Positions 6,446 through 61,505 of a DNA stretch of 64,000 nt are shown here, one piece after another (the stretch's first letter is position 1; each line of letters begins with the position of its first letter). The translations under genes and the position numbers were made by a program. The DNA lies in assembly GCA_039588275.1 (NCBI GenBank), contig JBDHAC010000003.1, positions 17,707-81,706 on the forward strand, given 5' to 3'. The stretch is from Gemmatimonadota bacterium (GTDB taxonomy: Bacteria > Gemmatimonadota > Gemmatimonadetes > Palauibacterales > Palauibacteraceae). The notes under the pieces are model-generated. The model was given only the letters and a program-made list of their open reading frames with translations, ran no database searches and was not told the origin of the DNA.

Positions 6446-6466
6446 ACGCCAGCGCGACCGGGACTC

Positions 6467-8317: not shown

Positions 8318-8345
8318 ACGTCCCCCTGCGCGGAGAGACAGGCGC

Positions 8346-8897: not shown

Positions 8898-8907
8898 GCG
8901 AACGACG

Positions 8908-13421: not shown

Positions 13422-13436
13422 TTCGGGGAGGTCGTC

Positions 13437-14766: not shown

Positions 14767-14773
14767 TGGGAAC

Positions 14774-16849: not shown

Positions 16850-16853
16850 AGAC

Positions 16854-35541: not shown

Positions 35542-35607
35542 CTTCGTTCGTTGGGCCGCCTAGCTTGCCCCGATGCGGATTCAATCCACGACCGCTCCGG
35601 ATCGGTG

Positions 35608-36375: not shown

Positions 36376-38088
<1,713 letters not shown>

Positions 38089-41421: not shown

Positions 41422-41429
41422 GATGCGCG

Positions 41430-44582: not shown

Positions 44583-46052
44583 GTGAGCGGAATGCGACCC
44601 GGCCTCCACACGGGCCTTCGAATGAAACAAGAGTTGAAGGTGAATCCTCGCCTGTATCAGGCGATGGACCTTCTCTATATGCCCCTCCTCGATCTTCAAC
44701 AGCACCTCAAGCAAGAGCTCGTCAACAACCCGTTCCTCGACCTCGTCGAGCCGGGCGAGGACGAGTTGAAGGAAGAAGCCGAGGAAAAGGAAGACCCCGA
44801 AGAGGAGGAAGTCGATTGGGAGGAGATCCTGCTCAACGGCTTCGATGCGGGGGGACGGCGCGCGGAGTACGAGGAGAAGGAGTACTTCCGACCCACCCCG
44901 GCCGCGACGCGGGATCTGTGGGACCACCTGTTCGATCAGCTCACGTTGATGAAGCTGGTTCCGCGCGAGGTGCTGATCGGCGAGGAGATCATCGGCAACA
45001 TCGACCGGGAAGGCTTTCTGACCTGTTCGCTGGGGCAGATCGTAGAGTCGGTGAACAACTATCTCGCGGACCCGGAAAACCCGCTCGTCCGTGAGGCGGA
45101 GGAGGCCGAAGAGGAGATCAATCTCGAGTCGGTCACCACGGAGGAAGTGGAGCGGATGCTCGGCATGATACAGGGCTTCGATCCCAGCGGGATCGCGGCT
45201 CGCGATCTGCGCGAGACGTTGCTCTTGCAGCTCCGAGACCGAGGCGAGGAGGACACGCTGGCGTTCCGGATCGTCCGCGATCACTTCGACGAGTTGGTGA
45301 ATCATCGTTGGAGCGAGCTCTCGAAGGAGCACGGCATCTCGCCGCAGGAAGTCCAGAGCGCTGCGGATGAGATTTCGAAGTTGGACCCGAAGCCGGGGCT
45401 CAAGTACTCGGACCTGTCCGACGCCTACGTGATTCCCGATCTCGTCGTCGAGAAGATCGACGGCCAGTATTACGTCTTCCACAACGACACCTCGCTGCCT
45501 CGCCTCAAGCTCTCGCGCTCCTATCGCGAGGTCGCGCAGGACCGAGGCAAGTTCCAGGGCGAGAACAAGACCTTCATCTCGAAGAAGCTCAACAGCGCCC
45601 AGTGGATGATCCAGGCGATCGAGCAGCGCCGGCAGACCATGCTGAAAGTGATGAACTTCATCGTCGACCGGCAGCGGGACTTCTTCGAGAAGGGCGTCGA
45701 GCACCTGCGCCCGCTCACTCTCCGCGAGGTCGCCGAGCACATCGACATGCATGAGTCGACGGTGTCGCGGGTCACGAACGAGAAGTACGTGCAGACACCT
45801 CGTGGCGTATTCCCACTCAAGTTCTTCTTCTCGAGCGGGCTGTCCACCGACTACGGGGAGGATGTGTCGGCCCGCGGCGTGCGGGCGCAGATCAAGAAGC
45901 TCGTGGGAGAGGAGGATTCCACGAGCCCGCTCACGGACCAGGCCATCGTCGACATCCTGAAACGAGACGGCGTACAGATCGCGCGCCGAACGGTGGCAAA
46001 ATACCGCGACCAGCTCGGGATCCTCTCCGCTCGCATGCGCAAGCGCGTATGA
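44583..46052 (+). CDS. rpoN: RNA polymerase sigma-54 factor
   Basis: N-terminal LKQELKVNPRLYQAM. C-terminal RpoN box ARRTVAKYRDQLGI. aggagg RBS 6 nt before GTG. Confidence 0.9.
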   Translation: MSGMRPGLHTGLRMKQELKVNPRLYQAMDLLYMPLLDLQQHLKQELVNNPFLDLVEPGEDELKEEAEEKEDPEEEEVDWEEILLNGFDAGGRRAEYEEKEYFRPTPAATRDLWDHLFDQLTLMKLVPREVLIGEEIIGNIDREGFLTCSLGQIVESVNNYLADPENPLVREAEEAEEEINLESVTTEEVERMLGMIQGFDPSGIAARDLRETLLLQLRDRGEEDTLAFRIVRDHFDELVNHRWSELSKEHGISPQEVQSAADEISKLDPKPGLKYSDLSDAYVIPDLVVEKIDGQYYVFHNDTSLPRLKLSRSYREVAQDRGKFQGENKTFISKKLNSAQWMIQAIEQRRQTMLKVMNFIVDRQRDFFEKGVEHLRPLTLREVAEHIDMHESTVSRVTNEKYVQTPRGVFPLKFFFSSGLSTDYGEDVSARGVRAQIKKLVGEEDSTSPLTDQAIVDILKRDGVQIARRTVAKYRDQLGILSARMRKRV

Positions 46053-47134
46053 CCGAAGCGGCCGCGGACGAACGATCCGTACCAGCGGCTCCCCCTTCCC
46101 ACCCGGTCTCGGCTCCAGATGTCTCGCGCTCCGAGACCCCGCCTGCGAAGGCACCGCAGGTGACCGCGGCCTCCTCGCCGGCCCCCAGGGTCTCGATCGT
46201 GATCCCGGCGTTCAACGAAGCCGAGAACATGCCCGAGCTCTTCGACGAGCTCGCCGGAACCATCCGTGAGCACGACCTTCACGCCGAGATCATCCTCGTG
46301 GACGATGGTTCGACCGACGGCACGCTGACCGCGGCTCGCCAGGCGACCGAGGCAGCAGACTTGCGGGACGTCACGCTGCTCCAGCACCGGCGCAACCGAG
46401 GCAAGACGGAGGCGCTGATCACGGCCGCACGCGAGGCACGGGGCGAGTATCTGGTGCTGTTCGACGCCGACCTGCAGCATTCGCCGCAGGAGATCCCACG
46501 CTTCGTCGAGCGCCTGGACTCGGGCGTGGATGTCGTCGCCGGTCGTAAGGTAGGACCGTACGAAAAGCGACTCGTATCGGGCCTCTACAATTGGCTCGCG
46601 CGGAAGATCTTCCGAGTCCCGGCTCGAGACCTGAACGCCATGAAGGCGTTTCGCGCCGAGGTCCTGGATCGCATCCACCTACGCCATGATTGGCACCGGT
46701 ATCTCGTGATCCTGGCGCATGCCGAAGGATACGAGATCGGGGAGATGGACATCCGGCTATACCCGCGCCGACACGGGGAGCCCAAGTACTCCGGCCGTCG
46801 GCGAATCCTCGTGGGAATCCTGGACCTGCTGGCCGTGTGGTTCCAGCTCGTGTTCAGTCGCAAGCCCATGCTGTTCTTCGGCGTGACCGGACTGGGGCTG
46901 TTGGTGGCGGGCGGGATCACGGGCGCGGTAGCGCTTGTCCTCCGCTTTGCCTTCCAGCTCGGCTTTCGACCCCTGCTCACGCTGGTCCTGCTGCTCGTGA
47001 TGTCCGGGCTAGTTCTTTTCGTGCTGGGCTTCCTGGCGGAGTTGATCGCGGGGCTGCGGGGGGAGATCGAGGAGCTAAGACGAGAGCGTCGTGAGGGGCG
47101 CTGGCGGGTGGGGACCGGCGACCGCCAGGACTGA
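46049..47134 (+). CDS. GT2 polyprenol-phosphate sugar synthase (GtrB/ArnC/Dpm1-like) with C-terminal TM helices
   Basis: VSIVIPAFNEAENM...LVDDGSTDGT motifs. Confidence 0.75.
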   Translation: MTEAAADERSVPAAPPSHPVSAPDVSRSETPPAKAPQVTAASSPAPRVSIVIPAFNEAENMPELFDELAGTIREHDLHAEIILVDDGSTDGTLTAARQATEAADLRDVTLLQHRRNRGKTEALITAAREARGEYLVLFDADLQHSPQEIPRFVERLDSGVDVVAGRKVGPYEKRLVSGLYNWLARKIFRVPARDLNAMKAFRAEVLDRIHLRHDWHRYLVILAHAEGYEIGEMDIRLYPRRHGEPKYSGRRRILVGILDLLAVWFQLVFSRKPMLFFGVTGLGLLVAGGITGAVALVLRFAFQLGFRPLLTLVLLLVMSGLVLFVLGFLAELIAGLRGEIEELRRERREGRWRVGTGDRQD

Positions 47135-48676
47135 GTGAGCGACGATCCGAAGGCGGACCCGGGGAGTTCCCGCCGCTCGCGCTTCGGGTGGACGGCGGCG
47201 GGTCTCGCCACCCTGCACGCGGTGGTCGGGTTGCTCCTCTTCGAGCCCACGCTCTTTCCGGGCGGCGACAACGCAGGCTATCTGATCCTCGGCGATTCAC
47301 TGAGAACGGGTAGCGGATACCGAGACCTCTACCTGCCAGGGTCCCCGCTCCACGCCAGGTATCCCCCGCTGCTGCCGTCGCTTCTAGCGCTCCTCGGCAC
47401 GCTCGGCGGCACCCATCTCGCCAAGATCGCCATGCTAGCCTGCACGTCGCTCGCGGTCTGGGTCACGGCGATCCTGGGCCGCCGACTCGTTGGAGATGGC
47501 CCCGCTCTATTCGCAGCGGCGCTACTGGCCATCAACCCGACGTTGCTCGAGTACGGGCACTACATCCTGTCCGAGGCCCCCTTCGTGTTGCTGGTCGTAC
47601 TGGCGTTGTGGGCGTCGCAGCGCGACGACCGTCAGGGGGCGGTACTGGCCACCGTCGCTGCGGTCGGTGCGTTCGCCACGCGTACGGCGGGACTTACCGT
47701 GCTACTGGCGCTCCCGCTGAGCTGGGTGGCCCGAAAGTCCTGGCGTCGCGCCGCCTGGGGAGGCATCGTGGCGATCTCCACGCTCGCGATCTGGGGACTC
47801 TACCAGCGCTGGGCCGCGCCGGAGCAGCCGGGCTACTTACAGGAACTCGTGCTCATCGACCCCTACACCCCCGAGGCGGGCTCGGTGGGCCTTACCGGAC
47901 TTGCCTTGCGCGCGGCGGAGAACCTCTGGGCGTACGCGAGCCGCGTCATCCCGCAGACTGCGATCGGCACGGAAGGAGCGGCCACACCTCTGGTCGCGAT
48001 CTTCGGGCTCACGCTGGCGGGGCTCGCGCTCGCTGGCTGGGCGATGCGCACCCGCAAGCCGCTGGACCCCCCGGAGATCTTCGTACTGCTCTATGTGGGG
48101 CTGATCGCGATCTGGCCTCAGGTCTGGACCGATCGGCGTTTCCTGCTCCCGCTCCTTCCGATGCTCACGCTGTTGGCCCTCGGCTTCGTCGCCAGCCGGG
48201 GCGACCGCGCGCGGCGCTGGGCGCCGGCCTTACTGGCGTGCGCAATCGCGCTCCCCTGTCTCGTGTGGGTTGTCAAACGGGTGCCCGCGCGCGTTGAATG
48301 CGTCGCGATGTATCGTGCGGGCCAACCGTGCGATATTCCGGCGTTCGCCAGCCTATACGAAGCCGCCCGCTGGGCCCGTGACAGCACGCCCCCCGATGCA
48401 ATCATCGCCAACCGGAAGCCGCGGCTGTTTTACTGGTACTCCCGCCGGCAGGGTGACCTGTACCCGTTCTCGACCGACGAAGATATCGTGCTCGGCGGGC
48501 TCGAGCGCATGGGTGCGGACTTCGTTGTCGTCGACCAGGTGAGTGGCACCACGGGACGTTATCTGGTCCCGGCCATCCAGGCCCGGCAGCACCGTTTCGA
48601 GCCTGTATACCAGGGAGGGTCCCCACCGACCTTCGTGTTTCGGATGCTGCCGTCGTCTCCCGTGGCCGTAAAATGA
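47135..48676 (+). CDS. polytopic membrane protein, putative GT-C fold glycosyltransferase (ArnT/PMT-like)
   Basis: About 11 TM helices. First periplasmic loop with an acidic/aromatic motif. Stop-start coupled to the upstream GT2 gene. Confidence 0.4.
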   Translation: MSDDPKADPGSSRRSRFGWTAAGLATLHAVVGLLLFEPTLFPGGDNAGYLILGDSLRTGSGYRDLYLPGSPLHARYPPLLPSLLALLGTLGGTHLAKIAMLACTSLAVWVTAILGRRLVGDGPALFAAALLAINPTLLEYGHYILSEAPFVLLVVLALWASQRDDRQGAVLATVAAVGAFATRTAGLTVLLALPLSWVARKSWRRAAWGGIVAISTLAIWGLYQRWAAPEQPGYLQELVLIDPYTPEAGSVGLTGLALRAAENLWAYASRVIPQTAIGTEGAATPLVAIFGLTLAGLALAGWAMRTRKPLDPPEIFVLLYVGLIAIWPQVWTDRRFLLPLLPMLTLLALGFVASRGDRARRWAPALLACAIALPCLVWVVKRVPARVECVAMYRAGQPCDIPAFASLYEAARWARDSTPPDAIIANRKPRLFYWYSRRQGDLYPFSTDEDIVLGGLERMGADFVVVDQVSGTTGRYLVPAIQARQHRFEPVYQGGSPPTFVFRMLPSSPVAVK

Positions 48677-49920
48677 GAGCTCTCCACATCGTGACAGCGT
48701 TTCCTCGCCACGAGGATGACGTGATCACGCCCTGGCTCGGGAACGTATTGCTCGGTCTTCGAGACGCGGGAGTGGACGCAGAGGTGCTCGCGCCGGCGTA
48801 CCGGGGGGGCGGAGCGCGCGAATGGCGTGGGATTACCGTTCGACGGTTTCGATACGCTCCCGCCGCCCTCGAGACGCTGACCCACGACGAAACTACCCCG
48901 GACCGACTGAAGCACCGTCCGTGGTACGTCGGCCTTCTGCCTGGTTACGTTGTGGGAGGAGCCATGGCGGCCTACCGCGCGGGCCAGACGGTACCGGACG
49001 TCATCCACGTCCATTGGCCGGTCCCGCACGGACTGTTCGGAGCGATCGGTCAAGTGGCGTCGGGCGGCCGATCGGCGCTCGTCGCAAGCTACTACTCGGT
49101 GGAGCTCAAGTGGATCGAGCGACGGCTCCCTAGCCTCGTCCCCTTCTTGCGTTGGACGATCGACTGTGCCGACGAAGTGACCGCGATCTCGACAGCGACG
49201 GCCCGGGAAGTCCGTCGGCACGTGGAGCGTCCGGTCCGGGTCATCCCGTTCGCGACCGGACTCTCGGGGGAGGTCGTCGATATCGGGCGGGGAGCGCGCC
49301 CTGCGGAGCAAGCGCCCGAGATCCTGTTTGTGGGTCGACTGGTGGAGCGAAAAGGCGTCGAGGTGCTGGTTCGCGCGCTGGCCCGTTTGCGCGAGCGGCG
49401 GGACGTGCGGGTTACGATCGTCGGAGAGGGGACCTGGGAGCCGCGGATTCGCGCGGCTGTAAGCGCCGCCGGGGTGGAGGACGCCGTGACCTTCACCGGG
49501 CGCGTCGATGAGTCGGCACTCGTCGAGGCCTATGGACGCGCGAGTGTGTTCGCGCTTCCCGCCGTGGAGGACGTGAAGGGAGACACCGAAGGACTCGGCG
49601 TCGTTCTGCTCGAGGCAATACGGCTTGGGGTGCCGGTCGTCGCTTCCTCTGCGGGCGGCATACCCGATATCGTGGTCGACGGCGAAACGGGGTGGCTCGT
49701 ACCGCCGCGTGATGACCGAGCGCTCGCCCGCGCGTTGCAGGAGGTTATCGATGATCCGGAGGAGGCGCGTCGACGTGTGGCGCGCGGCCGCGAACGGGTG
49801 GAACGGCGGTTTTCGCCCGAGGGGGTCGTGGCCTCGCTCGTCGAGTGCTACGAAGCCGCCATCACTCGGCGCCGAGGGTTCCAGACCGGTGGCGATCAAA
49901 GTGCGCCGACGGCGTCCTAA
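48673..49920 (+). CDS. GT4 family glycosyltransferase (GT-B fold)
   Basis: EGLGVVLLEAIRLGVPVVASSAGGIPDIV motif. Confidence 0.75.
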   Translation: MRALHIVTAFPRHEDDVITPWLGNVLLGLRDAGVDAEVLAPAYRGGGAREWRGITVRRFRYAPAALETLTHDETTPDRLKHRPWYVGLLPGYVVGGAMAAYRAGQTVPDVIHVHWPVPHGLFGAIGQVASGGRSALVASYYSVELKWIERRLPSLVPFLRWTIDCADEVTAISTATAREVRRHVERPVRVIPFATGLSGEVVDIGRGARPAEQAPEILFVGRLVERKGVEVLVRALARLRERRDVRVTIVGEGTWEPRIRAAVSAAGVEDAVTFTGRVDESALVEAYGRASVFALPAVEDVKGDTEGLGVVLLEAIRLGVPVVASSAGGIPDIVVDGETGWLVPPRDDRALARALQEVIDDPEEARRRVARGRERVERRFSPEGVVASLVECYEAAITRRRGFQTGGDQSAPTAS

Positions 49921-49939
49921 CCCGGGGAGTCATTGATCC

Positions 49940-50848
49940 ATGGTCAAGCTCGCGGTCGTCCGATGGTACCTCAACGCGCTGTACCTGCGTGCGCTCCGGC
50001 TGCGAGACCGCTGGCTGCGTCCCCGCGCCTTGAACGCCATCGACGCCAACCTGGCGAGCTCGCTGTTCACGGAGTACGAGTCGATCGCGGAGGAGCTCTC
50101 GCACGTGGAGCGGCTGCAAAACCGCGAGTTCAAGGTCTTCTCGCAGAATGGGGAAGATGGCCTGCTTGCCTACATCTTCTCCGAGATCGGCACGACGAAT
50201 CGGCGGTTCGTAGAATTCGGAGTCGAGGACGGACGGGAGTGCAATTGCGCCAATCTCGCGATCCACTTCGGCTGGAGCGGCCTGATGCTCGAGGCCAACC
50301 CGGCCGATGTGCACCGGGCCCGGGTCTTCTACGGCAGGCTGCGAGGGGAGGATGGCCCGAGGGTGGCCGTGGAGGAGTGCCTCGTGACGATCGAGAACAT
50401 CAACGAAGCGATCGCGGCGGGCCGGGTGACGGGTGAGATAGACCTGCTCTCCATCGACATCGACGGGAACGACTACTGGATCTGGGAGGCGATCGATGTC
50501 GTCAGCGCGAGAGTGGTGGTCATCGAATACAACGCGTCCTTCGGCAGACGCTCCATCAGCATCGCGTACGATCCGGGGTTCGTTCGCTTCAAGGCGCACC
50601 GCAGCGGCTGGTACCACGGCGCGTCGCTCGCAGCCTTGACGAAGCTCAGCGACCGTAAGGGATACGACCTGATCGGCACGGACAGCTTTGGCGTGAATGC
50701 TTTCTTCGTTCGGCGGGATGTGCCGAAGGGGAGACTGGAGGCATTGGAGGCGGACGAGGCGTACCGACCGCAGCGCAAGCGTATGAAGGTCGCGACGCTG
50801 GAGCAGCAGTTCGCGGCGATCGAGCACTTGGCCTACGTTGACGTCTAG
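49940..50848 (+). CDS. FkbM-family methyltransferase-like protein
   Basis: FVEFGVEDG...LEANP and IDLLSIDIDGNDYWIWEAI blocks resemble FkbM domain motifs. Confidence 0.4.
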   Translation: MVKLAVVRWYLNALYLRALRLRDRWLRPRALNAIDANLASSLFTEYESIAEELSHVERLQNREFKVFSQNGEDGLLAYIFSEIGTTNRRFVEFGVEDGRECNCANLAIHFGWSGLMLEANPADVHRARVFYGRLRGEDGPRVAVEECLVTIENINEAIAAGRVTGEIDLLSIDIDGNDYWIWEAIDVVSARVVVIEYNASFGRRSISIAYDPGFVRFKAHRSGWYHGASLAALTKLSDRKGYDLIGTDSFGVNAFFVRRDVPKGRLEALEADEAYRPQRKRMKVATLEQQFAAIEHLAYVDV

Positions 50849-50869
50849 GCGACACGATCGCCGTGTCCG

Positions 50870-53293
50870 GTGACAGATGAAGGAGACGTCGATCGAAATG
50901 CTCACGTGGGTGAGTCGGGGGAGGTGAAGGGGGGGGCACGCGGGCACGGGAAGGCCATCCTGTGGGTGTTCCTGGGTGGCGCCGCCCTGGCGAGCGTGTG
51001 GTTCTACCGCGAGTTCGTCTTCTTCGCGGAGCGGCTCATCTATGGCTCGGACATGCTGTTCGAGGGGATTTCCCTTCGGCGGTTCTACGTAGATGAGATC
51101 CGAGCCGGTCGCGGTGTTCCGCTGTGGATCCCGCACGTATACGGCGGAATGCCCTTCGTCGCGCTGCTTCCCGGACCGATCTTCTACCCGACGACTCTCC
51201 TGTACCTCCTCATGCCGCTCCATCGAGCCATTGGCTGGACCTTCGTCCTGCACACGTTCCTGAGCGGCGCCTTCGCGTATTTCATGGCCCGATCCTTCCG
51301 CCTGCGGCCGAGCTCGGCGGTAGTCTGCGGCGTCTCGTTCATGTTCACCGGGTACGTCACGTCACACCTGTTCGGAGGGCATGACGGACGGATGTTCGCC
51401 ATGACCCTGATCCCCCTGGCCATCGGCTCGCTCCAGCGAGGACTCGATACCGGCGAAGCGCACTGGTTCGGAGCGCTCGCCCTCGTCGTGGCAATGCAGA
51501 TCTTCACGCCGCACATGCAAGTGATGTATTTTTCATGTCTTGCACTGTCCCTATTCCTCCTGTTCCATCTCCTGGTCCGGGTACCTCGCGCTCCGGAGGG
51601 GGGGCGGAGGGGGGCGTACGCGCGACCGCTGGCCGGCTTCGCACTCGCATTGCTGGCGGCGATCGCGATCGGTGGGTTACAGCTGTTTCCGACGCTGGCA
51701 CTCCTTGACGACGCGACGCGCGCCGCGACCGAGCGGGGGTACGAGTTCGCCGCCTCTTACGCGTTGCCTCCCCAGGAGCTTACGGCACTCTTTCTCCCGG
51801 ACCTGGTCAGCTCGCTGCCGGGGCGGTACTGGGGCCAGAACCCACTCAAGCTCCACACGGAGTATCTGGGTGCGGTGCCGTTGGCGCTGGCGCTCTTCGC
51901 CATTGCGTCAGCATTTCGCCCCGGACTGAGCCGCGAGCACCGCCGCGTCATTGGCTTCCTGGTGGTGGCGAGTCTCCTGGGGGTCCTCTTCGCACTCGGG
52001 GCGGCGACGCCCGTCCACCGACTCGCGTACGTCGTATTGCCTATGATCCGGAGCCTGCGGGCGCCGGCGATGATGCTCGGGCCGGTCTCGGTCTTCATCG
52101 CGCTATTGGCGGGCTTCGGGTGGGAGGCCGCGGCGGCGCGGCGGGAGACTCCAGGGGATGAGGGCCCGTCGGTGTCGTGGGTCGCCCTCGCCCTCCTCGC
52201 GGGTCCCGTCTTGCTGCTCGGCGTTGTGGCGGCCGTCAATCCGCGCGGACTGCTTCGCTTCGTCCTCCTCGAGTGGTATCCGACCGGGTGGCCGCGCGAA
52301 CCTGACCCGGCGCTCGTGCCGGCCCTGCGCGCCAACGGAATGCTGCTCCTGGGAGGGTTTGGCCTTGCCTGGGGAGTCGCCCTCGCGGTGTCCCGTCGTA
52401 AGGTCAGCGAGCTGGCGCTCGTGCTCGTCGTCCTGTTTGCCGTCGCGGACCTGTGGCGGGTCGATTCACGGTACCTGGAGGTGCGCGACGCCGGGGAGCT
52501 CGAAGCCGATTCCGTTCTCACGGCGCTCACGAGTGAGACCAGCCCCGGGGAACGAGTGTGGGCGCCCGCCCTCGCCGGCTCAGTGCCCAACTATCGACCG
52601 AACCGCCTCATCTACCACGGCGTCTCGTCGGCGACGGGTCGTCAGAAGTTCCTTCTTCGCCCTTTCGCGAGGCTCGTGGGAGGCATCCAGCCGGACGAGG
52701 GACTGCTCCGGTATCCTGCGCTTCTCGGACTACTCGACGTTCGGTACCTGATCACGCCGGGGGTCCAGAATGGCCTCGACCTCGTCGCGGAGGCGGGCGG
52801 CCGCTACCTGTATCGCCTTCCGGACCCACCCCACGCCTTCTTTCCGGTGGACATCGCCGTGGTCGACGATACGGCGGAGGCCCTCGCGCGCACCCGCTCG
52901 AACCCGGACCCCATGACCCTCACAGTCGTAGAGGCCAGCTCGGGTAGGGAGCCGCCGGCGCCGGGGCGTGGACGCGCGTCGATCGTGGGTTACGAGCCCG
53001 ATAGGATCGAACTCGGTGCGGAGGTCGAGCTCCCCGGACTGCTGGCGGTGAGCGAGATCTTCCACCCGGGCTGGCGCGCGTACGTGGACGACGAGGAGGT
53101 CCCGGTATGGCGGGTCAACGTGGCGTTTCGGGGCGTCGAGGTGCCCGCCGGGACGCATCGAATCACCTTCGAGTACGATAGCCGTTCCTACCGCCTGGGG
53201 TTCTGGTTGAGCATGCTGACGATGATCGGGGTCGGTGTCGTGATGTGGCTTTCGTGGCGCAGGTCTCGCCTCGCGTCGAAGAGCGCGATTTGA
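50870..53293 (+). CDS. YfhO-family polytopic membrane protein (GT-C type glycosyltransferase)
   Basis: 807 aa with about 13 TM helices and a C-terminal periplasmic domain. The N-terminal region is typical of YfhO. Confidence 0.6.
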   Translation: MTDEGDVDRNAHVGESGEVKGGARGHGKAILWVFLGGAALASVWFYREFVFFAERLIYGSDMLFEGISLRRFYVDEIRAGRGVPLWIPHVYGGMPFVALLPGPIFYPTTLLYLLMPLHRAIGWTFVLHTFLSGAFAYFMARSFRLRPSSAVVCGVSFMFTGYVTSHLFGGHDGRMFAMTLIPLAIGSLQRGLDTGEAHWFGALALVVAMQIFTPHMQVMYFSCLALSLFLLFHLLVRVPRAPEGGRRGAYARPLAGFALALLAAIAIGGLQLFPTLALLDDATRAATERGYEFAASYALPPQELTALFLPDLVSSLPGRYWGQNPLKLHTEYLGAVPLALALFAIASAFRPGLSREHRRVIGFLVVASLLGVLFALGAATPVHRLAYVVLPMIRSLRAPAMMLGPVSVFIALLAGFGWEAAAARRETPGDEGPSVSWVALALLAGPVLLLGVVAAVNPRGLLRFVLLEWYPTGWPREPDPALVPALRANGMLLLGGFGLAWGVALAVSRRKVSELALVLVVLFAVADLWRVDSRYLEVRDAGELEADSVLTALTSETSPGERVWAPALAGSVPNYRPNRLIYHGVSSATGRQKFLLRPFARLVGGIQPDEGLLRYPALLGLLDVRYLITPGVQNGLDLVAEAGGRYLYRLPDPPHAFFPVDIAVVDDTAEALARTRSNPDPMTLTVVEASSGREPPAPGRGRASIVGYEPDRIELGAEVELPGLLAVSEIFHPGWRAYVDDEEVPVWRVNVAFRGVEVPAGTHRITFEYDSRSYRLGFWLSMLTMIGVGVVMWLSWRRSRLASKSAI

Positions 53294-53330
53294 TCGGACC
53301 AGCGAGGGGGTTTCCACCCATGAAGCGCCG

Positions 53331-54323
53331 GTGACCGAGCTCGGGCACAGCGAGAGGGAGACCGCGGGGTCCCGGCTCCGTGACCGGAGGCGGGTACGGT
53401 TGGCTACGGGGCTCTTCCTCCTGCTCGCGCTGGTCGCCGTAGCGGTTGCCATACGAGGCGAATGGGCCGCGTGGACCACACTCGAGGACGACACGCGCAC
53501 CTATGGGTGGAGAGTGTCCGTTCCATTCCTCGCGGTGGCACTCGGGTGCGGAGTCTCGGCCCTGTTGGCGTCAGGCGCGCTGTGGGCCGCCCTGTTTCGG
53601 TCGGCCGGAGGACGTACCGGATGGCGTGAGGCGATCGCGGCCTGGTTGGGCTCCAACCTCGGAAGGTACCTGCCGGGCAAGTTCTGGCAGCTCGCCAGTC
53701 TCGCGGCGTACGTGCGAGCTCGTGGCGACTCCGGAGCCCGTGCGCTCACGGTGTCCTTGGCCCTTCAGGCCGTGGTCCTCGCAGCGGGCGCAGCCGTCGC
53801 GGTGATCTTTCTTGGCGGCCAAGCGTTTGGCGCCGCGAGCCCCTGGACGATCGCCATCGCGGTCGCGGCCATCGCCTTGGCGCTCAACCCGGCGGTACTT
53901 CGGCGGTCTATCGTCTGGGCAGGGTACCTCCTTCGCGAGGAGCCGACCCCCGAGGTGTCGGGACTCGGCTATGGCGTGCTGCTCCGCGCGGCAGCATGTG
54001 CCTTTGTGCTGTGGGGCTTGTATGGAGTGGGCTTCTGGGCCCTATGCAAGGGTCTGGTCGGAGGGAGCCCGGTGTCCGTCTCGATCGCAGCGGCCGTGTT
54101 CGCAGCCGGATACATCGTCGGTTACGTCGTACTCCTCGCGCCCGGGGGCATCGTGGTTCGCGAAGGTGCGATCGCCGGCCTCCTCGGTGCGGTGGCCGGT
54201 GTCCCGCTGGGACCAGCGACGGCGATCGCGCTCGCGGCGCGGCTGTGGACCACCGTGGCCGAGCTTCTCGCGTTCGCGCTCGCCGCTGGTGCCGGGCTGC
54301 GGCGACACTCCGGATCGCGCTAG
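53331..54323 (+). CDS. flippase-like lysylphosphatidylglycerol-synthase-TM (UPF0104) domain membrane protein
   Basis: About 8 TM helices. The family is frequently paired with Dpm1-like GT2 genes. Confidence 0.55.
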   Translation: MTELGHSERETAGSRLRDRRRVRLATGLFLLLALVAVAVAIRGEWAAWTTLEDDTRTYGWRVSVPFLAVALGCGVSALLASGALWAALFRSAGGRTGWREAIAAWLGSNLGRYLPGKFWQLASLAAYVRARGDSGARALTVSLALQAVVLAAGAAVAVIFLGGQAFGAASPWTIAIAVAAIALALNPAVLRRSIVWAGYLLREEPTPEVSGLGYGVLLRAAACAFVLWGLYGVGFWALCKGLVGGSPVSVSIAAAVFAAGYIVGYVVLLAPGGIVVREGAIAGLLGAVAGVPLGPATAIALAARLWTTVAELLAFALAAGAGLRRHSGSR

Positions 54324-54333
54324 CTTCCGGTCC

Positions 54334-55134
54334 ATGGAGGCAGAAGGGGGTGGGCGCGAGAGAGTGCCGGGAACCGACGGAGAACGATCGACCGTGAGCG
54401 GCACGATCCGGGAGAGCGCGGGTCGAGGGCTCGTGATCCTGCCTACGTACGAGGAGGTGGAGAGTCTCGGTCAGATCGTACCGCGCATCCTGGCGCTGGA
54501 TCCCCGCCTCGATATTCTGGTGATCGACGATGCGTCGCCTGACGGCACGGGAGAGCTGGCGGACCGTTTGGCTTCGGAGGAGCCCAGGGTCTCCGTTATG
54601 CACCGCGAGGGGAAACTAGGACTCGGGTCGGCTTACATCGCCGGCTTTCGGACCGGGCTGGAACGCGGGTACGACCTCCTGTTCGAGATGGATGCGGATG
54701 GTTCGCACGACCCTGAGCACCTCGTTCCGATGATCGCGGCGACGGAAGAGTTCGACGTCGTCGTCGGATCGCGCTACCTGCGCGGCGTGAACGTGATCAA
54801 CTGGCCGATGTCCCGTCTGCTGCTCAGCTACTACGCCAACAAATACGCCCGGGTGGTCACGGGCCTGGCTCTGGCGGACCTGACGAGCGGCTTCAAATGC
54901 TTCAAGCGCGAAGTGCTGGAGGCGATCCGCCTCGAGAAGGTCGGCTCCACCGGATACGCGTTTCAGATCGAGATGAACGTTCGAGCCTGGAAGCGGGGTT
55001 TCCGCGTGGGCGAGATCCCGATCGTGTTCGTGGATCGGGAAGCGGGGCAGAGCAAGATGTCGGGGGCCATCGTCCGCGAAGCGATATGGCGGGTGTGGGC
55101 GCTGCGCTTCAAGTCGATGTTCGGGAGGCTATAG
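54334..55134 (+). CDS. GT2 polyprenol-phosphate hexose synthase (Dpm1/Ppm1-like, soluble)
   Basis: VILPTYEEVESL...VIDDASPDGT...DADGSHDP motifs. ATG at 54334 lies inside the longer ORF. Confidence 0.75.
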   Translation: MEAEGGGRERVPGTDGERSTVSGTIRESAGRGLVILPTYEEVESLGQIVPRILALDPRLDILVIDDASPDGTGELADRLASEEPRVSVMHREGKLGLGSAYIAGFRTGLERGYDLLFEMDADGSHDPEHLVPMIAATEEFDVVVGSRYLRGVNVINWPMSRLLLSYYANKYARVVTGLALADLTSGFKCFKREVLEAIRLEKVGSTGYAFQIEMNVRAWKRGFRVGEIPIVFVDREAGQSKMSGAIVREAIWRVWALRFKSMFGRL

Positions 55135-55141
55135 GAGGCCG

Positions 55142-56074
55142 GTGAAGGAGCTCGCTGACGTTCTGCATCCGGCCCGGCGGAGGGTCCGGCCGGCGATCGA
55201 CTACAAGAGCCATCCGGTGTTCGCCACGCGGCCGGAATGGCGATGCGAGGTGCACCGGATCATCTTCGGGCACCTGACGCCGGGCGGGAAGCTGTTCGAC
55301 ATCATCCTGATCGCGGTGATCCTGGTCAGCGTCGCCGTCGTAATGATCGAGAGCGTCGCATCCGTGCGACTGCGACACGGCACTGCCCTGAGGACCGCAG
55401 AGTGGGTGTTCACCCTGCTGTTCACGCTCGAGTACGCGATGCGTCTCGTTGCGGCGGAGAACGCGGGCCGATACGCGCGCAGCCCCCTGGGGTTGATCGA
55501 CTTCCTCGCGGTCCTGCCCACCTACGTGAGCCTCCTCATCCCTGGAGGGCAGGCGTTCACCGTGATTCGGATCCTGCGCGTGATGCGCGTGTTTCGCGTG
55601 CTCAAGCTCGCGCAGTTCGTCGGGGGCGAGCAGCTGCTCATCCGGGCCCTGCGCGCGAGCTCATACAAGATCGTCGTGTTTCTCATCGCGGTGCTGACCG
55701 TCGTCGTGATCATGGGGTCGATCATGTACTTCATCGAGGGGCCCGAACACGGCTTCACGAGCATCCCGGTTGGCGTGTACTGGGCGATAGTGACGCTCAC
55801 CACGGTGGGTTTCGGAGACATCACCCCACAAACGCCGATTGGTCAGGTTCTGGCGGCGATGCTCATGATCCTCGGTTACGCCGTCATCGCCGTGCCCACG
55901 GGCATCGTGACCGTCGAGATGGCAGCCGCCGGGCAGCGTCGCATACTCCCCCGCGACAAGCCGGGAAAAGCGCGGCAATCGGGCCAGCGGCGCGTGTGCC
56001 TCGGGTGCGGCGCCGAGGGGCACGATGAGGACGCCACCCACTGCAAGTTCTGCGGGGTCCATCTGCCGACATGA
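55142..56074 (+). CDS. voltage-gated K+ channel (6TM, S4 sensor) with C-terminal zinc ribbon
   Basis: S4 segment IRILRVMRVFRVLKL. Pore TLTTVGFGD. C-terminal CLGCG...CKFCG. Confidence 0.75.
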   Translation: MKELADVLHPARRRVRPAIDYKSHPVFATRPEWRCEVHRIIFGHLTPGGKLFDIILIAVILVSVAVVMIESVASVRLRHGTALRTAEWVFTLLFTLEYAMRLVAAENAGRYARSPLGLIDFLAVLPTYVSLLIPGGQAFTVIRILRVMRVFRVLKLAQFVGGEQLLIRALRASSYKIVVFLIAVLTVVVIMGSIMYFIEGPEHGFTSIPVGVYWAIVTLTTVGFGDITPQTPIGQVLAAMLMILGYAVIAVPTGIVTVEMAAAGQRRILPRDKPGKARQSGQRRVCLGCGAEGHDEDATHCKFCGVHLPT

Positions 56075-57953: not shown

Positions 57954-58739
57954 CTAACATTTCCCGGCCTTTCCGGCATTGTAGATCGCCCGGACCTCAG
58001 CACCCGTGAGCGCTCGGCCCCAGTAGCCGACCTCATCAACAAGACCGTTGAACTCGAAGTCGCTCGCCGGCGGGCCGAGGCTCTCGTCACGTCGTCCGAT
58101 TCCGAGCCAGGTGTCAGCCACGCGGATCGAGGTGGCGACCAGGGAGCCCGCTTCCGCACCGTTCACATAAAACCGCACCGTGAAGCCGTCCCACGTGAGC
58201 GCGAGGTGCGTCCACACGTCGATGCTCGCCGGGGCTGCGATTACGGCCGCCTGGTTGTTGTCGGCTTGGCGGATAAAACCGCGCCACACAGAACCGTTGT
58301 GGTCAATGACGTACGCCTCGGCATAGGCGGCCCCCTTGCCGACGACGGCTCCGTTGTTTGGCTGGAAGAAGTCGTGCAGCTTGGCCCAGGCATCGACCGT
58401 GAACCCCGGTGGTCCCGATGGGTTGAGATCGGGAGTGTCATCGACCCGGGCCATCGACCCGGACGACCCGTCGAAGCTGAAGGCCTGTCCCCCACGCGAG
58501 GTGACGTAGCCTGAGCTGAAGCCCGCGTTGCCGACCATCACGGCATCGCTATGGCCTACGAGGTCGTGTCCACTACCGTCGCCCGTCCACCAATGAAGGA
58601 GGCCGCTCGGAGGCGCCACGCAGTCAGTTGTTGATGTGGTCGTGATCGGGAGCGGGAGAAAGTCAGAGCAGGCGTCGAGAGCGAGGATGCAAGCGTCGAA
58701 CAAGAGCACGCCCAGCGCGAGAACCGTTAACCGCCGCAT
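57954..58739 (-). CDS. secreted LamG/concanavalin-A-like lectin domain protein
   Basis: Signal peptide. Laminin-G-like motifs (LVDEVGYWGRALTGAEV). Confidence 0.55.
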   Translation of the reverse strand: MRRLTVLALGVLLFDACILALDACSDFLPLPITTTSTTDCVAPPSGLLHWWTGDGSGHDLVGHSDAVMVGNAGFSSGYVTSRGGQAFSFDGSSGSMARVDDTPDLNPSGPPGFTVDAWAKLHDFFQPNNGAVVGKGAAYAEAYVIDHNGSVWRGFIRQADNNQAAVIAAPASIDVWTHLALTWDGFTVRFYVNGAEAGSLVATSIRVADTWLGIGRRDESLGPPASDFEFNGLVDEVGYWGRALTGAEVRAIYNAGKAGKC

Positions 58740-61415: not shown

Positions 61416-61433
61416 CGAGCTCGCTTCCAGCAG

Positions 61434-61505
61434 ATCGAAGTCAGTCAGCAGGCCGAAGTCAGTTAGCAGGCCGAAATCGGTTACCGGGCCGAAGTCAGTC
61501 TTGCT
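61434..61505. repeat. four 18-nt tandem repeats (gccgaagtcagtYagcag-like) between the pcm stop and the DUF368 start
   Basis: Units at 61434, 61452, 61470 and 61488. Confidence 0.8.

What the first reader, a model, noticed from the sequence alone, without database searches (positions are those of the whole stretch)
46049..55134. Nine-kb envelope glycosylation island directly downstream of rpoN, with two polyprenol-phosphate-sugar synthases and GT-C (YfhO and ArnT-like) transferases in a diderm
Seven co-directional, translationally coupled genes encode the following:
- a GtrB/ArnC-like GT2 with TM anchor;
- a polytopic GT-C-like membrane protein;
- a GT4;
- an FkbM-like methyltransferase;
- an 807-aa YfhO-family protein;
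- a flippase-like LPG-synthase-TM protein;
- a second, soluble Dpm1-like GT2.

In Firmicutes, the trio CsbB(GT2)/GtcA(flippase)/YfhO glycosylates teichoic acids with C55-P-sugars. ArnC/ArnT do the same for lipid A. Here both logics are combined in an organism that makes Kdo-LPS; kds and lpt genes lie immediately upstream. Diderms lack teichoic acids, so the acceptor is not predictable. Candidates are LPS core or lipid A, a surface protein (O-mannosylation-like), or another glycan. Placement after lptCAB-rpoN suggests envelope-linked regulation.
Basis: partly seen in the sequence, partly recalled or inferred. Interest (0 to 1): 0.8.

Follow-up and report, generated by a model that had tools for sequence, protein, structure and literature searches.

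The report
Conserved rpoN-linked envelope glycosylation operon
Directly behind the sigma-54 gene, this Gemmatimonadota bacterium carries a seven-gene operon, conserved across its phylum, that should attach lipid-carried sugars to an unknown component of the cell envelope outside the inner membrane; the operon's middle part has been swapped between close relatives, much as happens at surface-antigen loci.

Summary
Seven tightly packed co-directional genes (46049-55134) follow rpoN. They encode:
- an ArnC/GtrB-like membrane GT2;
- a GT-C-fold protein;
- a GT4;
- an FkbM-like methyltransferase;
- a YfhO-family GT-C;
- a PF03706 (MprF-flippase-like) protein;
- a soluble DPMS-like GT2.

The interpretation needs three corrections.
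- **It is not an island.** lptB-rpoN-GT2-...-YfhO-...-GT2 is kept in 53 of 54 Gemmatimonadota genomes with enough flank. The rpoN stop overlaps the GT2 start (ATGA/GTGA) in 59 of 62 loci.
- **The parts are not unusual in diderms.** YfhO proteins are common there. The trio of DPMS-like GT2, PF03706 and GT-C recurs in another phylum (Zixibacteria) and was predicted in archaea in 2015.
- **It reads as two modules.** These are GT2-GT-C-GT4 and methyltransferase-YfhO-PF03706-GT2.

New here: the central 7.5 kb (about 46.93-54.43 kb) is a replaced cassette. The nearest relatives are 90-96% identical in the flanks but only 48-60% in the centre.

Most likely function: periplasmic glycosylation from undecaprenyl-phosphate sugars of a strain-variable surface glycoconjugate. 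The acceptor is unresolved; LPS is the leading guess, and protein or a lipoglycan remain open. This is a new variant of a known kind, of moderate interest.

The parts
44583..46052 (+). rpoN (sigma-54). Its TGA stop overlaps the ATG of g1 (ATGA).
   Evidence: TIGR02395 scores 436 bits and all three sigma-54 Pfam domains are present. The 4-nt overlap with an in-frame g1 start is present in 59 of 62 loci.
46049..47134 (+). g1: membrane-anchored GT2 of the ArnC/GtrB/AglJ/PgfS type, the predicted polyprenyl-phosphate sugar synthase of module A.
   Evidence: PF00535 scores 105 bits. It aligns over full length to the ArnC, PgfS and AglJ models, but far below their equivalog cut-offs. Solved relatives: ArnC 9hwj E 2.4e-28 (residues 44-337 against 6-299), DPMS 5mlz, GtrB 5ekp. 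Hydrophobic segments lie at residues 252-330.
47135..48676 (+). g2: GT-C-fold glycosyltransferase (ArnT/PMT_2-like, 513 aa) with a C-terminal periplasmic domain.
   Evidence: AlphaFold2 gives pLDDT 90.1 and pTM 0.89. The top 38 Foldseek PDB hits are all GT-C, with ArnT 5f15 at TMq 0.58 and TMt 0.56. G43, D45 and N46 are invariant in the first loop after TM1. Some orthologues carry PF13231, PF02366 or PF09594.
48673..49920 (+). g3: GT4 (GT-B) cytoplasmic glycosyltransferase that uses nucleotide sugars.
   Evidence: PF00534 scores 146 bits. Nearest solved relatives are Tll1590, BshA, PimB' (1.6e-22), MshA and PimA; WaaG reaches only 1.7e-6. It is present in 53 of 54 loci with enough flank.
49940..50848 (+). 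g4: FkbM-like methyltransferase. It is the lineage-specific occupant of the methyltransferase slot upstream of YfhO.
   Evidence: PF05050 scores 18.3 bits, below its cut-off. The family has 7590 hits, and some members pass PF05050 or are named FkbM methyltransferase. It has no TM segment. Among the loci it is present only in L083, L082, L003 and L009. Most other loci carry a class-I SAM methyltransferase at this position.
50870..53293 (+). g5: YfhO-family GT-C glycosyltransferase (807 aa, or 789 aa if it starts at the GTG at 50924). It has a periplasmic beta-rich C-terminal domain and a terminal TM helix.
   Evidence: PF09586 scores 44.8 bits against a cut-off of 28.5. AlphaFold2 gives pLDDT 85.9. 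The top 29 Foldseek PDB hits are all GT-C, including AftD, STT3, ArnT and PglB. D61 is invariant in the first loop after TM1.
53331..54323 (+). g6: PF03706 (LPG_synthase_TM, MprF-flippase-like, 'PplT') polytopic membrane protein. Candidate flippase and/or membrane partner of g7.
   Evidence: PF03706 scores 42.1 bits against a cut-off of 33.4, matching residues 28-310 to profile positions 5-297 of 302. It lies next to YfhO and a soluble GT2 also in the Zixibacteria locus L085 and in L086 and L087.
54334..55134 (+). g7: soluble DPMS/AglD/PpgS-like GT2, the predicted polyprenyl-phosphate sugar synthase of module B.
   Evidence: PF00535 scores 91 bits. Pyrococcus DPMS 5mlz matches at E 1.4e-29 (residues 33-257 against 26-246). 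It has no TM segment. It is present downstream of g5 in 71 of 71 loci with enough flank.
46930..54430 (.). Exchangeable central cassette: the TM tail of g1, g2, g3, g4, g5, g6 and the variable N-terminus of g7. It is bounded by sharp drops in identity to the nearest relatives.
   Evidence: Sliding nucleotide identity to L019 is 85-93% outside and 45-68% inside. Breakpoints lie at about 46,920-46,950 and about 54,420-54,440. Amino-acid identity to L019 is 90-96% for the flanks and 48-60% for the centre, whereas L083 is uniformly 80-89%. These are the lowest-centre pairs among all locus pairs with flank identity of 90% or more.

Best explanation
This is a vertically inherited operon found across Gemmatimonadota. 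It is read through from lptB-rpoN and encodes a two-module glycosylation pathway that spans the inner membrane.

**Module A (g1-g2-g3).**
- The membrane GT2 g1 charges undecaprenyl phosphate with a sugar on the cytoplasmic face.
- The GT4 g3 adds a nucleotide-sugar-derived residue in the cytoplasm, either to the acceptor precursor or to the lipid-linked sugar.
- The ArnT-like GT-C g2 transfers from the flipped lipid donor to the acceptor in the periplasm.

**Module B (methyltransferase-g5-g6-g7).**
- The soluble DPMS-like GT2 g7 makes a second undecaprenyl-phosphate sugar at the membrane, together with the PF03706 protein g6.
- g6 also flips that product.
- The methyltransferase (FkbM-type g4 here) methylates the sugar in the cytoplasm.
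- The YfhO GT-C g5 transfers it to the acceptor outside.

The released undecaprenyl phosphate is recycled; a DUF368 translocase gene lies 5 kb downstream.

The product is a surface-exposed glycoconjugate that varies between strains. My leading guess for the acceptor is LPS (core, lipid A or a short O-chain-like extension).

**Shown:** the gene families, the folds, the conservation, the overlap with rpoN and the cassette replacement.

**Inferred:** the sugar donors, the flippase role of g6, the order of steps and the acceptor.
For: **Families and folds.**

**Catalytic residues.** An invariant Asp lies in the first extracytoplasmic loop of both GT-C proteins.

**Conservation.**
- 53 of 54 loci have lptB-rpoN-g1-g3 upstream of g5, and 71 of 71 have g7 downstream.
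- The ATGA/GTGA overlap of rpoN and g1 is present in 59 of 62 loci.

**Two modules.**
- In L052 the methyltransferase-YfhO-PF03706-GT2 group stands alone, away from rpoN.
- YfhO, PF03706 and a soluble GT2 are also linked in Zixibacteria (L085) and in L087.
- A methyltransferase sits directly upstream of YfhO: 43 of 51 extra interior ORFs are class-I SAM methyltransferases.

**Role of PF03706.**
- It is the C-terminal domain of the archaeal Dol-P-Man synthase AglD, and neighbours AglD-like GT2 and PMT/STT3-like GT-C genes (PMC5898192).
- HexF has been proposed as a flippase for a glycolipid (PMC10128005).

**Precedent.** Multi-component systems, including the soluble GT-A plus membrane-partner variant, are reviewed in PMC8035078. 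Those of Gram-negatives are covered in PMC11127046.

**A variable surface product.**
- The cassette has been replaced with sharp breakpoints.
- Tailoring genes vary in the slot upstream of YfhO: FkbM, class-I methyltransferase, UDP-GlcNAc 2-epimerase, or none.

**The LPS guess.**
- The operon is contiguous with kdsA/C/D-lptC-lptA-like-lptB.
- ArnC and ArnT are the closest solved relatives of g1 and g2.
- From my own knowledge rather than a test here, the characterised diderm GT-C systems known to me act on lipid A, core or O-antigen.
Against: - No biochemical or genetic data exist for any member.
- Sugar identities are unknown.
- g1 scores far below the ArnC equivalog cut-off (105 against 529 bits), and the cluster has no arnA/B/D-type genes, so it is not the Ara4N pathway.
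- Linkage to kds and lpt passes through rpoN, which is not itself an LPS gene, so association by neighbourhood is weak.
- WaaG-type core GT4s are much more distant from g3 than PimB', BshA or MshA are.
- There is no GtrA, SMR, MATE or Wzx flippase in the cluster, so flipping of the g1 product is unexplained.
- Relatives in other phyla sit beside initiating phosphoglycosyltransferases. This hints at undecaprenyl-diphosphate-linked glycans as partners rather than lipid A-core.
- The centre genes evolve faster than the flanks everywhere. Part of the contrast is therefore rate, not exchange.
Confidence: 0.55

Rival explanations
1. General protein O-glycosylation. Undecaprenyl-phosphate sugars made by g1 and g7 are transferred by the two GT-C enzymes to Ser/Thr-rich regions of periplasmic or lipoproteins. 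This would resemble the Ppm1/Pmt system of actinobacteria and the PgfS/PgfM1/PgfM2 system of Streptococcus mutans, and the role proposed for YfhO in Bacteroidota.
For: - g1 aligns over full length to PgfS (80 bits), and g5 weakly to PgfM1 and PgfM2.
- Pgf is a protein-glycosylation machinery (bioRxiv 10.1101/2022.10.10.511621, abstract seen).
- YfhO is conserved in Bacteroidota and has been proposed, in silico only, as their O-oligosaccharyltransferase.
- g2's top fold matches include STT3, AglB, PglB and Pmt4.
- A LamG-domain protein has a lipoprotein-like signal followed by a PLPITTTSTTD linker. It lies just downstream in the window, and its homologue lies inside the cluster (between g6 and g7) in five Palauibacter loci.
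Against: - All Pgf scores are far below the equivalog cut-offs (80 against 500, 22 against 1400).
- Fold similarity to OST and PMT enzymes is generic to GT-C; ArnT is equally close.
- The LamG gene is absent from most loci, including the window's nearest relatives.
- No acceptor sequon or target is known.
- The Bacteroidota proposal is itself untested.
Confidence: 0.2
2. A separate membrane-anchored lipoglycan, the diderm counterpart of PIM/lipomannan or of the LTA anchor. GT4 g3 glycosylates a glycerolipid on the cytoplasmic face. The MprF-like g6 flips this glycolipid. g2 and g5 extend it in the periplasm with undecaprenyl-phosphate sugars from g1 and g7. The methyltransferase caps it.
For: - The nearest solved relatives of g3 act on small or lipid acceptors: BshA, PimB' (1.6e-22), MshA and PimA. 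NCBIfam also gives a GlcNAc-phosphatidylglycerol synthase hit of 62 bits.
- The only demonstrated substrates of the PF03706 domain are modified glycerolipids. HexF was proposed to flip a glycolipid (PMC10128005; PplT preprint 10.1101/2022.03.11.483950, which also reports fusions of this domain to GT-B enzymes).
- GT4 lies directly upstream of YfhO in other phyla too (L087, L089).
- g7 is DPMS/Ppm1-like.
Against: - The GT4 similarities are generic.
- g6 is always adjacent to g7 rather than g3. In L052 and L085 it travels with YfhO and the soluble GT2 without a GT4.
- No lipid-anchor synthesis genes are in the cluster.
- No such lipoglycan has been reported for the phylum; the literature searches found nothing.
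Confidence: 0.2
3. A horizontally acquired glycosylation island. The whole 9 kb would be a recent insertion downstream of rpoN.
For: - The central 7.5 kb has clearly been exchanged between lineages.
- g4 has relatives about 50% identical in other phyla: Balneolota, Verrucomicrobiota and Hydrogenedentes.
Against: - The cluster sits at the same place in 53 of 54 genomes across the phylum.
- The rpoN/g1 overlap is conserved.
- GC is not deviant, and there are no tRNAs or flanking repeats.
- The exchanged segment replaces homologous genes of the same families rather than inserting new ones.
Confidence: 0.03
4. g5 (and/or g2) is not a monosaccharide transferase. It would instead be a ligase or oligosaccharyltransferase that moves an undecaprenyl-diphosphate-linked oligosaccharide, built elsewhere, onto its acceptor. 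The two GT2s would serve only for side-chain decoration.
For: - YfhO relatives in Zixibacteria and in L087 are adjacent to initiating phosphoglycosyltransferases, of the WecA/MraY type and the WbaP type respectively.
- In L089 a Wzx-type gene is nearby.
- The Bacteroidota proposal is of this kind.
Against: - There is no phosphoglycosyltransferase, Wzx or Wzy in the Gemmatimonadota cluster.
- Characterised YfhO enzymes use C55-P-GlcNAc (PMC5836110, PMC8035078).
- The strict linkage with a DPMS-like GT2 argues for a monophosphate-sugar donor.
Confidence: 0.1

Closest known systems
Three- or multi-component transmembrane glycosylation systems: GtrA/B/C for O-antigen, CsbB/GtcA/YfhO for teichoic acids, GacI/J/K/L for rhamnose polysaccharide
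   Same: - A GT2 makes a C55-P-sugar in the cytoplasm, and a GT-C enzyme transfers it outside.
- Both a membrane-anchored GT2 (g1) and a soluble GT2 plus membrane partner (g7 with g6) have precedents (PMC8035078, PMC11127046).
- g5 belongs to the same Pfam family as YfhO.
   Different: - Two donor synthases and two GT-C enzymes sit in one operon, together with a GT4 and a methyltransferase.
- There is no GtrA, SMR, MATE or Wzx flippase; a PF03706 protein is present instead.
- The host has no teichoic acids.
- The operon is conserved across the phylum and fused to rpoN, rather than being a phage-borne or serotype-specific add-on.
Archaeal AglD-type module: AglD-like GT2 + PF03706/COG0392 domain + PMT/STT3-like GT-C (PMC5898192). 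In Haloferax, AglD/AglR/AglS add the final mannose of the N-glycan.
   Same: - The three families (DPMS-like GT2, MprF-flippase-like membrane protein, GT-C) are genomic neighbours.
- g7 hits the AglJ and haloarchaeal Dol-P-hexose transferase models (64 and 49 bits).
- A SAM methyltransferase tailors the glycan in both. AglP in Haloferax is from my own knowledge.
   Different: - This is a bacterial diderm host.
- GT2 and PF03706 are separate genes, not fused.
- The GT-C is of the YfhO family.
- Scores are far below the equivalog cut-offs.
- The acceptor here is unknown, and N-glycosylation is not implied.
ArnC/ArnT (lipid A L-Ara4N), and related lipid A/core decorations such as Rgt, Lgm and Flm (these last named from my own knowledge)
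   Same: - ArnC is the closest solved relative of g1 (E 2.4e-28). ArnT is among the closest folds to g2 and g5 (TM 0.51-0.58).
- The host is a diderm.
- The genes are neighbours of LPS genes.
   Different: - g1 is far below the ArnC equivalog cut-off (105 against 529 bits).
- There are no ArnA, ArnB or ArnD genes and no ArnE/F flippase.
- PMT_2 is below its cut-off in g2.
O-antigen and capsule loci with conserved flanks and a replaceable centre
   Same: - Sharp recombination breakpoints lie inside conserved flanking genes.
- Two deeply divergent alleles (54-60% aa) occur within a group whose flanks are 87-97% identical.
- The content of tailoring genes differs between alleles.
   Different: - Both alleles keep the same gene families in the same order.
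- There is no Wzx/Wzy, ABC transporter or WaaL in the locus.
- The conserved flanks are themselves the donor synthases.
Actinobacterial Ppm1-dependent pathways: PimA/PimB' (GT4), PimE/Mpt (GT-C) and Pmt
   Same: The logic is the same: cytoplasmic GT4 steps followed by periplasmic GT-C steps fed by a DPMS-like polyprenyl-phosphate-mannose synthase. PimB' and PimA are among the nearer solved relatives of g3.
   Different: - The window's g2 and g5 do not match GT87 or PimE-type families.
- The cluster has no phosphatidylinositol genes.
- The phylum and the envelope type are different.

Membership tests
Multi-component transmembrane glycosylation system (GT2 + flippase + GT-C) | A GT-A/GT2 enzyme of the polyprenyl-phosphate glycosyltransferase clade (DPMS/GtrB/ArnC) | tested here: met
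   g1: ArnC E 2.4e-28, DPMS 2e-20, GtrB 5e-13, with TM helices. g7: DPMS 1.4e-29.
Multi-component transmembrane glycosylation system (GT2 + flippase + GT-C) | A polytopic GT-C-fold transferase with a conserved acidic residue in the first extracytoplasmic loop | tested here: met
   The g2 and g5 models match only GT-C structures at the top of the hit lists. D45 (g2) and D61 (g5) are invariant.
Multi-component transmembrane glycosylation system (GT2 + flippase + GT-C) | A dedicated small flippase of the GtrA/SMR type (or MATE/Wzx) encoded with the system | tested here: not met
   None of the seven products hits PF04138 or other known flippase families. Only PF03706 is present. Intergenic gaps are 37 nt or less (75 nt at most, depending on the g5 start).
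Multi-component transmembrane glycosylation system (GT2 + flippase + GT-C) | Demonstrated C55-P-sugar intermediate and extracytoplasmic transfer | not testable with these tools
   This requires biochemistry or genetics.
YfhO family (PF09586) | Score above the Pfam gathering threshold | tested here: met
   44.8 bits against 28.5, but only residues 733-781 align. Nearly all orthologues carry a precomputed PF09586 hit.
YfhO family (PF09586) | Teichoic-acid acceptor, as for characterised members (LTA/WTA GlcNAc) | not testable with these tools
   The host encodes Kdo and Lpt genes and so is a diderm. Teichoic acids are not expected there, which is an inference.
ArnC/ArnT lipid A aminoarabinose pathway | ArnC equivalog score, with accompanying ArnA/B/D and ArnE/F genes | tested here: not met
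   NF007986 scores 104.7 bits against a cut-off of 529. No formyltransferase, aminotransferase, deformylase or SMR genes are in the cluster.
ArnC/ArnT lipid A aminoarabinose pathway | ArnT-like GT-C (PMT_2/GT83) | tested here: inconclusive
   PMT_2 scores 20.9 bits, below 26.1. The fold resembles ArnT with TM 0.56-0.58, but it resembles OSTs equally.
Pgf protein glycosylation machinery (S. mutans) | PgfS, PgfM1 and PgfM2 equivalog scores | tested here: not met
   PgfS 79.8 against 500, PgfM1 22 against 1400, PgfM2 16.8 against 1500.
Genomic island | Patchy distribution, deviant composition, mobility genes or a tRNA at the borders | tested here: not met
   The cluster is conserved at the same site in 53 of 54 genomes. 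GC is 0.64-0.69, like its surroundings. There are no tRNAs and no border repeats.
Variable surface-glycan locus (O-antigen/capsule-like) | Conserved flanks with a divergent, recombinationally exchanged centre | tested here: met
   Flanks are 85-93% nt identical and the centre 45-68%, with breakpoints about 30 nt wide. There are two allele types within one genus-level group.
Variable surface-glycan locus (O-antigen/capsule-like) | Wzx/Wzy or ABC-transporter export genes, an initiating phosphoglycosyltransferase, and a ligase | tested here: not met
   None is among the cluster genes in the window or in L001, L002 and L086. The rest of the genome could not be examined.
AglD-type GT2 / PF03706 / GT-C module (PMC5898192) | The three families are encoded as neighbours | tested here: met
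   g5-g6-g7 are neighbours in the window and in every locus where g6 is detectable. The same holds in Zixibacteria L085 and in L087.
AglD-type GT2 / PF03706 / GT-C module (PMC5898192) | Orthology to AglD/AglS and an N-glycan acceptor | tested here: not met
   The haloarchaeal Dol-P-hexose transferase model scores 48.8 against 375, and AglJ 64 against 325. The acceptor cannot be tested.

The most novel reading that the evidence does not exclude
The operon makes a so far undescribed, methyl-capped lipoglycan of the Gemmatimonadota envelope. This would be a diderm counterpart of lipomannan or lipoteichoic acid. It would start on a GT4-made glycolipid, be flipped by a stand-alone MprF-type flippase, and be extended in the periplasm by an ArnT-like and a YfhO GT-C enzyme. 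Allelic cassettes would give strain-specific structures. An equally novel alternative that the evidence does not exclude is that YfhO here is the transferase of a general protein O-glycosylation system shared with Bacteroidota.
Probability: 0.2. Interest if true: 0.7.

Novelty: new variant of a known kind. Interest (0 to 1): 0.45.

Why it matters
Gemmatimonadota are abundant in soils and in marine sediments and sponges, yet their envelope chemistry is essentially unknown. This operon is a core genomic feature of every sampled lineage that carries this YfhO subfamily and is hard-wired to the lpt-rpoN operon, so its product is probably a major envelope component.

It gives a bacterial, genetically compact example of the GT2 + PF03706 + GT-C module that was predicted for archaea. 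That makes it a place to test whether MprF-type domains flip polyprenyl-phosphate sugars or glycolipids.

The cassette replacement between near-identical flanks suggests selection for surface variation, for example by phages or grazers. It also offers natural allele pairs, with and without a methyltransferase, for linking genes to glycan structure.

The operon may also bear on what YfhO proteins do in diderms, including the proposed but unproven O-oligosaccharyltransferase role in Bacteroidota.

Tried and rejected
- **PDB sequence searches.** g2, g4, g5 and g6 found nothing. Fold prediction was needed for g2 and g5.
- **AlphaFold database fold search.** The library was unavailable, so the nearest annotated fold relatives outside the PDB were not obtained.
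- **Promoter and terminator scan.** Counts did not exceed those in shuffled sequence. It gives no evidence for or against internal transcription units.
- **Repeats and tRNAs.** The repeat search across the cluster found only short chance-level matches. No tRNA was found. A site-specific insertion mechanism was therefore rejected.
- **Literature searches.** Gemmatimonadota + glycosyltransferase + LPS, PF03706 and LPG_synthase_TM returned nothing about this cluster.
- **LamG lipoprotein as a dedicated acceptor.** It is present in only six loci and absent from the window's nearest relatives, so I kept it as a lead only.
- **ArnC/ArnT, Pgf and AglD/AglJ orthology.** Rejected on equivalog scores.
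- **Genome-collection scan.** It used two peptide patterns specific to this YfhO subfamily and returned only uncultured Gemmatimonadota. Whether cultured species such as Gemmatimonas aurantiaca have the operon was not established.
- **Rest of the window.** It holds nuo, sucCD, fab, pyrG and similar housekeeping genes, and no further LPS or glycan genes that would identify the acceptor.

Full report
**What is there.** The window comes from a high-GC (about 66%) Gemmatimonadota genome related to Candidatus Palauibacter. On the + strand the gene order is:
- pyrG, kdsA, a kdsC-like HAD gene and kdsD (SIS+CBS);
- lptC, a 734-aa ORF with only a faint LptA/LptD_N signal, lptB and rpoN;
- then seven genes, g1 to g7, at 46049-55134.

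The gaps between them are -4, 0, -4, 19, 21, 37 and 10 nt. Consensus promoter and terminator scans show nothing above the shuffled background. 'Translationally coupled' is literally true for rpoN/g1 and g2/g3, and arguably for g1/g2.

**What the proteins are.**
- g1 is a GT2 (PF00535, 105 bits) with hydrophobic C-terminal helices. Its closest solved relatives are ArnC (E 2.4e-28, full length), Pyrococcus dolichol-phosphate-mannose synthase and GtrB.
- g7 is a soluble GT2 whose closest solved relative is the same DPMS (E 1.4e-29). Both belong to the polyprenyl-phosphate glycosyltransferase clade. Neither reaches any NCBIfam equivalog cut-off (ArnC 105 against 529, PgfS 80 against 500, AglJ 76 and 64 against 325).
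- g2 misses the PMT_2 threshold (20.9 against 26.1 bits). A 30-sequence alignment gave an AlphaFold model of pLDDT 90. Its top 38 PDB matches are all GT-C enzymes: STT3, AglB, ArnT (TM 0.56-0.58), ALG12, DPY19, AftA and Pmt4.
- g5 passes the YfhO threshold only through its C-terminus (44.8 against 28.5). Its model (pLDDT 86) again matches only GT-C structures in its top 29 hits.
- Each GT-C has an invariant Asp in the first loop after TM1: D45 in g2 and D61 in g5.
- g3 is an ordinary GT4. g6 passes PF03706.
- g4 is a sub-threshold FkbM match, but belongs to a very large family that includes annotated FkbM methyltransferases.

**It is not an island.** A scan of one genome per species found 80 loci, all of them Gemmatimonadota.
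- Of 54 loci with at least 7.5 kb upstream of the YfhO gene, 53 carry lptB, rpoN, g1 and g3 in the same orientation. g2 is detectable in 44.
- All 71 loci with enough downstream sequence carry g7.
- The rpoN stop overlaps an in-frame g1 start (ATGA or GTGA) in 59 of 62 loci.
- Composition is unremarkable, and there are no tRNAs or border repeats.

The cluster is therefore an ancestral, core part of the lpt-rpoN operon in this phylum.

**Two modules.**
- In one genome (L052) the group methyltransferase-YfhO-PF03706-GT2 stands alone, away from rpoN.
- In a Zixibacteria contig the order is PF03706-YfhO-GT2. In another contig it is GT4-ORF-YfhO-PF03706-GT2. In both, an initiating phosphoglycosyltransferase follows.
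- Within Gemmatimonadota, 43 of 51 additional ORFs inside the cluster are class-I SAM methyltransferases lying directly upstream of YfhO.
- The window has an FkbM-type enzyme in that slot. A deep relative (L086) has a UDP-GlcNAc 2-epimerase within the cluster, between the GT-C and GT4 genes. The window's nearest relatives have nothing there.

I therefore read the operon as module A (g1, g2, g3) plus module B (methyltransferase, g5, g6, g7).

Module B is the bacterial counterpart of a neighbourhood described for archaea. PF03706/COG0392, the MprF flippase domain, forms the C-terminal domain of the Dol-P-mannose synthase AglD. It neighbours AglD-like GT2 genes and PMT/STT3-like GT-C genes, and was predicted to act as a flippase in glycosylation (PMC5898192). 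Stand-alone MprF-like proteins have also been proposed to flip a glycolipid (HexF, PMC10128005). They are often fused to GT-A or GT-B domains (bioRxiv 10.1101/2022.03.11.483950).

**The centre is an exchanged cassette.** The nearest relatives by flanking genes are L019 and L020. Amino-acid identities to the window are:

| Genes | L019/L020 | L083 |
|---|---|---|
| Flanks: rpoN, lptB, g7, downstream antiporter | 95-96%, 90%, 90-92%, 94-95% | not on contig, not on contig, 87%, 89% |
| Centre: g2, g3, g5, g6 | 59-60%, 58%, 54-55%, 47-48% | g2 incomplete at the contig end, 82%, 86%, 84% |

L083 is thus uniformly 80-89% identical across the genes it carries, g3 to the antiporter.
- Sliding nucleotide identity to L019 is 85-93% up to about 46,920. 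It is 45-68% from there to about 54,420, and 82-92% afterwards.
- The left breakpoint lies in the TM tail of g1. The right one lies at the start of the catalytic core of g7.
- Within this genus-level group there are two allele types: {window, L083}, which have the FkbM gene, and {L019, L020}, which lack it. Each type is 82-92% identical internally, and the two differ by 40-46%.
- Across all locus pairs the centre does evolve faster than the flanks: it averages about 80% identity when the flanks are 90-95%. The window/L019 and window/L020 pairs, at 58%, are the lowest-centre pairs of all those with flank identity of 90% or more.

This is the pattern seen at O-antigen and capsule loci. The difference is that both alleles keep the same families, and the conserved recombination anchors are the two donor synthase genes.

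**How it most likely works.** See the best explanation for the steps. Two undecaprenyl-phosphate sugars are made by g1 and by g7 with g6. A GT4 and a methyltransferase act in the cytoplasm. The GT-C enzymes g2 and g5 transfer the sugars in the periplasm. The carrier is then recycled.
- Shown: the families, the folds and the genomic linkage.
- Inferred: the donors, the flipping, the order of steps and the acceptor.

I put about 0.85 on the general mechanism and about 0.4 on LPS as the acceptor. The case for LPS rests on contiguity with the kds and lpt genes, on ArnC/ArnT being the closest solved relatives, and on my own knowledge of characterised diderm GT-C systems, which act on lipid A, core or O-antigen. 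Protein O-glycosylation and a separate lipoglycan remain serious alternatives at about 0.2 each.

**Comparison with what is known.**
- Multi-component GT2/flippase/GT-C glycosylation is well established in both Gram-positives and Gram-negatives (PMC8035078, PMC11127046).
- YfhO is not peculiar to monoderms. It is conserved across Bacteroidota.
- A profile of this subfamily finds 10,694 representative clusters at E of 1e-30 or better. These include full-length relatives in Zixibacteria, Hydrothermae and Omnitrophota.

The novelty therefore lies in the particular architecture:
- two modules, with a PF03706 protein in place of the usual flippases;
- an obligatory methyltransferase;
- phylum-wide coupling to rpoN;
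- the cassette exchange.

No member has been studied experimentally, and I found no paper that describes the cluster.

**Verdict.** This is a real and coherent envelope glycosylation operon. It is a new variant of a known kind, of moderate interest (0.45). The acceptor is the open question, and ordinary genetics and mass spectrometry in a cultivable relative could settle it.

Noticed in passing
window 60519-61508 (-); L002 15209-15883 (-): About 5 kb downstream of the cluster lies a DUF368/PF04018 'undecaprenyl phosphate translocase-like' gene (214 bits). It sits between the TPR_21 and phosphoribosyltransferase genes on one side and pcm-surE on the other. In 11 other distinct Gemmatimonadota loci (12 hits, two of which are the same contig) a DedA/VTT-domain gene lies in the downstream flank of the cluster instead; in L002 it sits between the TPR_21 gene and pcm. 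The DUF368 gene is found in 7 loci besides the window. To my knowledge these are the two families of Und-P recycling flippases, so this looks like an analogous displacement next to a pathway that releases Und-P outside.
   Followed up: partly
window 55142-56074 (+) and 56181-57896 (+): Immediately after g7 come a voltage-gated-type K+ channel and a CPA2 cation/proton antiporter fused to a PTS EIIA-2 (PtsN-like) domain. In Proteobacteria a free ptsN follows rpoN and regulates K+ transport (own knowledge). Here the EIIA domain is fused to a transporter, and the glycosylation genes lie between rpoN and it. The fusion was found only in the window's closer relatives (7 loci). The Zixibacteria locus L085 has a free EIIA-2 gene near its YfhO cluster.
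   Followed up: partly
window 57954-58739 (-); L001 13487-14680 (+): A Laminin_G_3 (LamG) protein has a lipoprotein-like signal (..ILALDAC) and a Thr/Ser-rich linker (PLPITTTSTTD). It lies in a 1.2-kb segment that is absent from the nearest relative L019. Homologues (39-42% identity) lie inside the cluster, between g6 and g7, in five Palauibacter loci. It could be a glycosylation target or a glycan-binding partner, or the linkage could be coincidence.
   Followed up: partly
window 41418-43622 (+): The gene in the lptA position, between lptC and lptB, is unusually long (about 734 aa here, 455-582 aa in relatives). It has one N-terminal hydrophobic segment and no Pfam hit above threshold; LptD_N/LptA scores only 16 bits at residues 200-252. 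It also evolves fast (66% identity to L019, where rpoN is 96%).
   Followed up: partly
L086 7760-8914 (+); L051 2051-3292 (+): Other occupants of the cluster interior: a UDP-N-acetylglucosamine 2-epimerase (PF02350) between the GT-C and GT4 genes in a deep relative, which hints at a ManNAc-type sugar there. Also, one of the 51 interior ORFs scanned is a Mutator-family transposase (probably L051 2051-3292, judging by its length; the scan output did not name the member).
   Followed up: no
L005 vs L009 (Palauibacter loci): This pair has flanks 96% identical but the centre only 75%. It suggests that exchange of the central cassette is not confined to the window's lineage.
   Followed up: no
window 34009-35541 (+) and 35538-36404 (+): Two co-directional ORFs (510 and 288 aa) lie between a nitroreductase gene and pyrG. 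They have no Pfam family; the first gives only a sub-threshold bactofilin hit.
   Followed up: no
L089 (Hydrothermae contig) 595-16980: A YfhO relative is embedded in a different polysaccharide-type cluster. That cluster has ATP-sulfurylase and APS kinase, two Phosphodiest-family enzymes, GT2, GT4, a Wzx-type gene and a GtrA-PMT fusion protein. This suggests a sulfated glycan with YfhO-dependent decoration in another diderm phylum.
   Followed up: no
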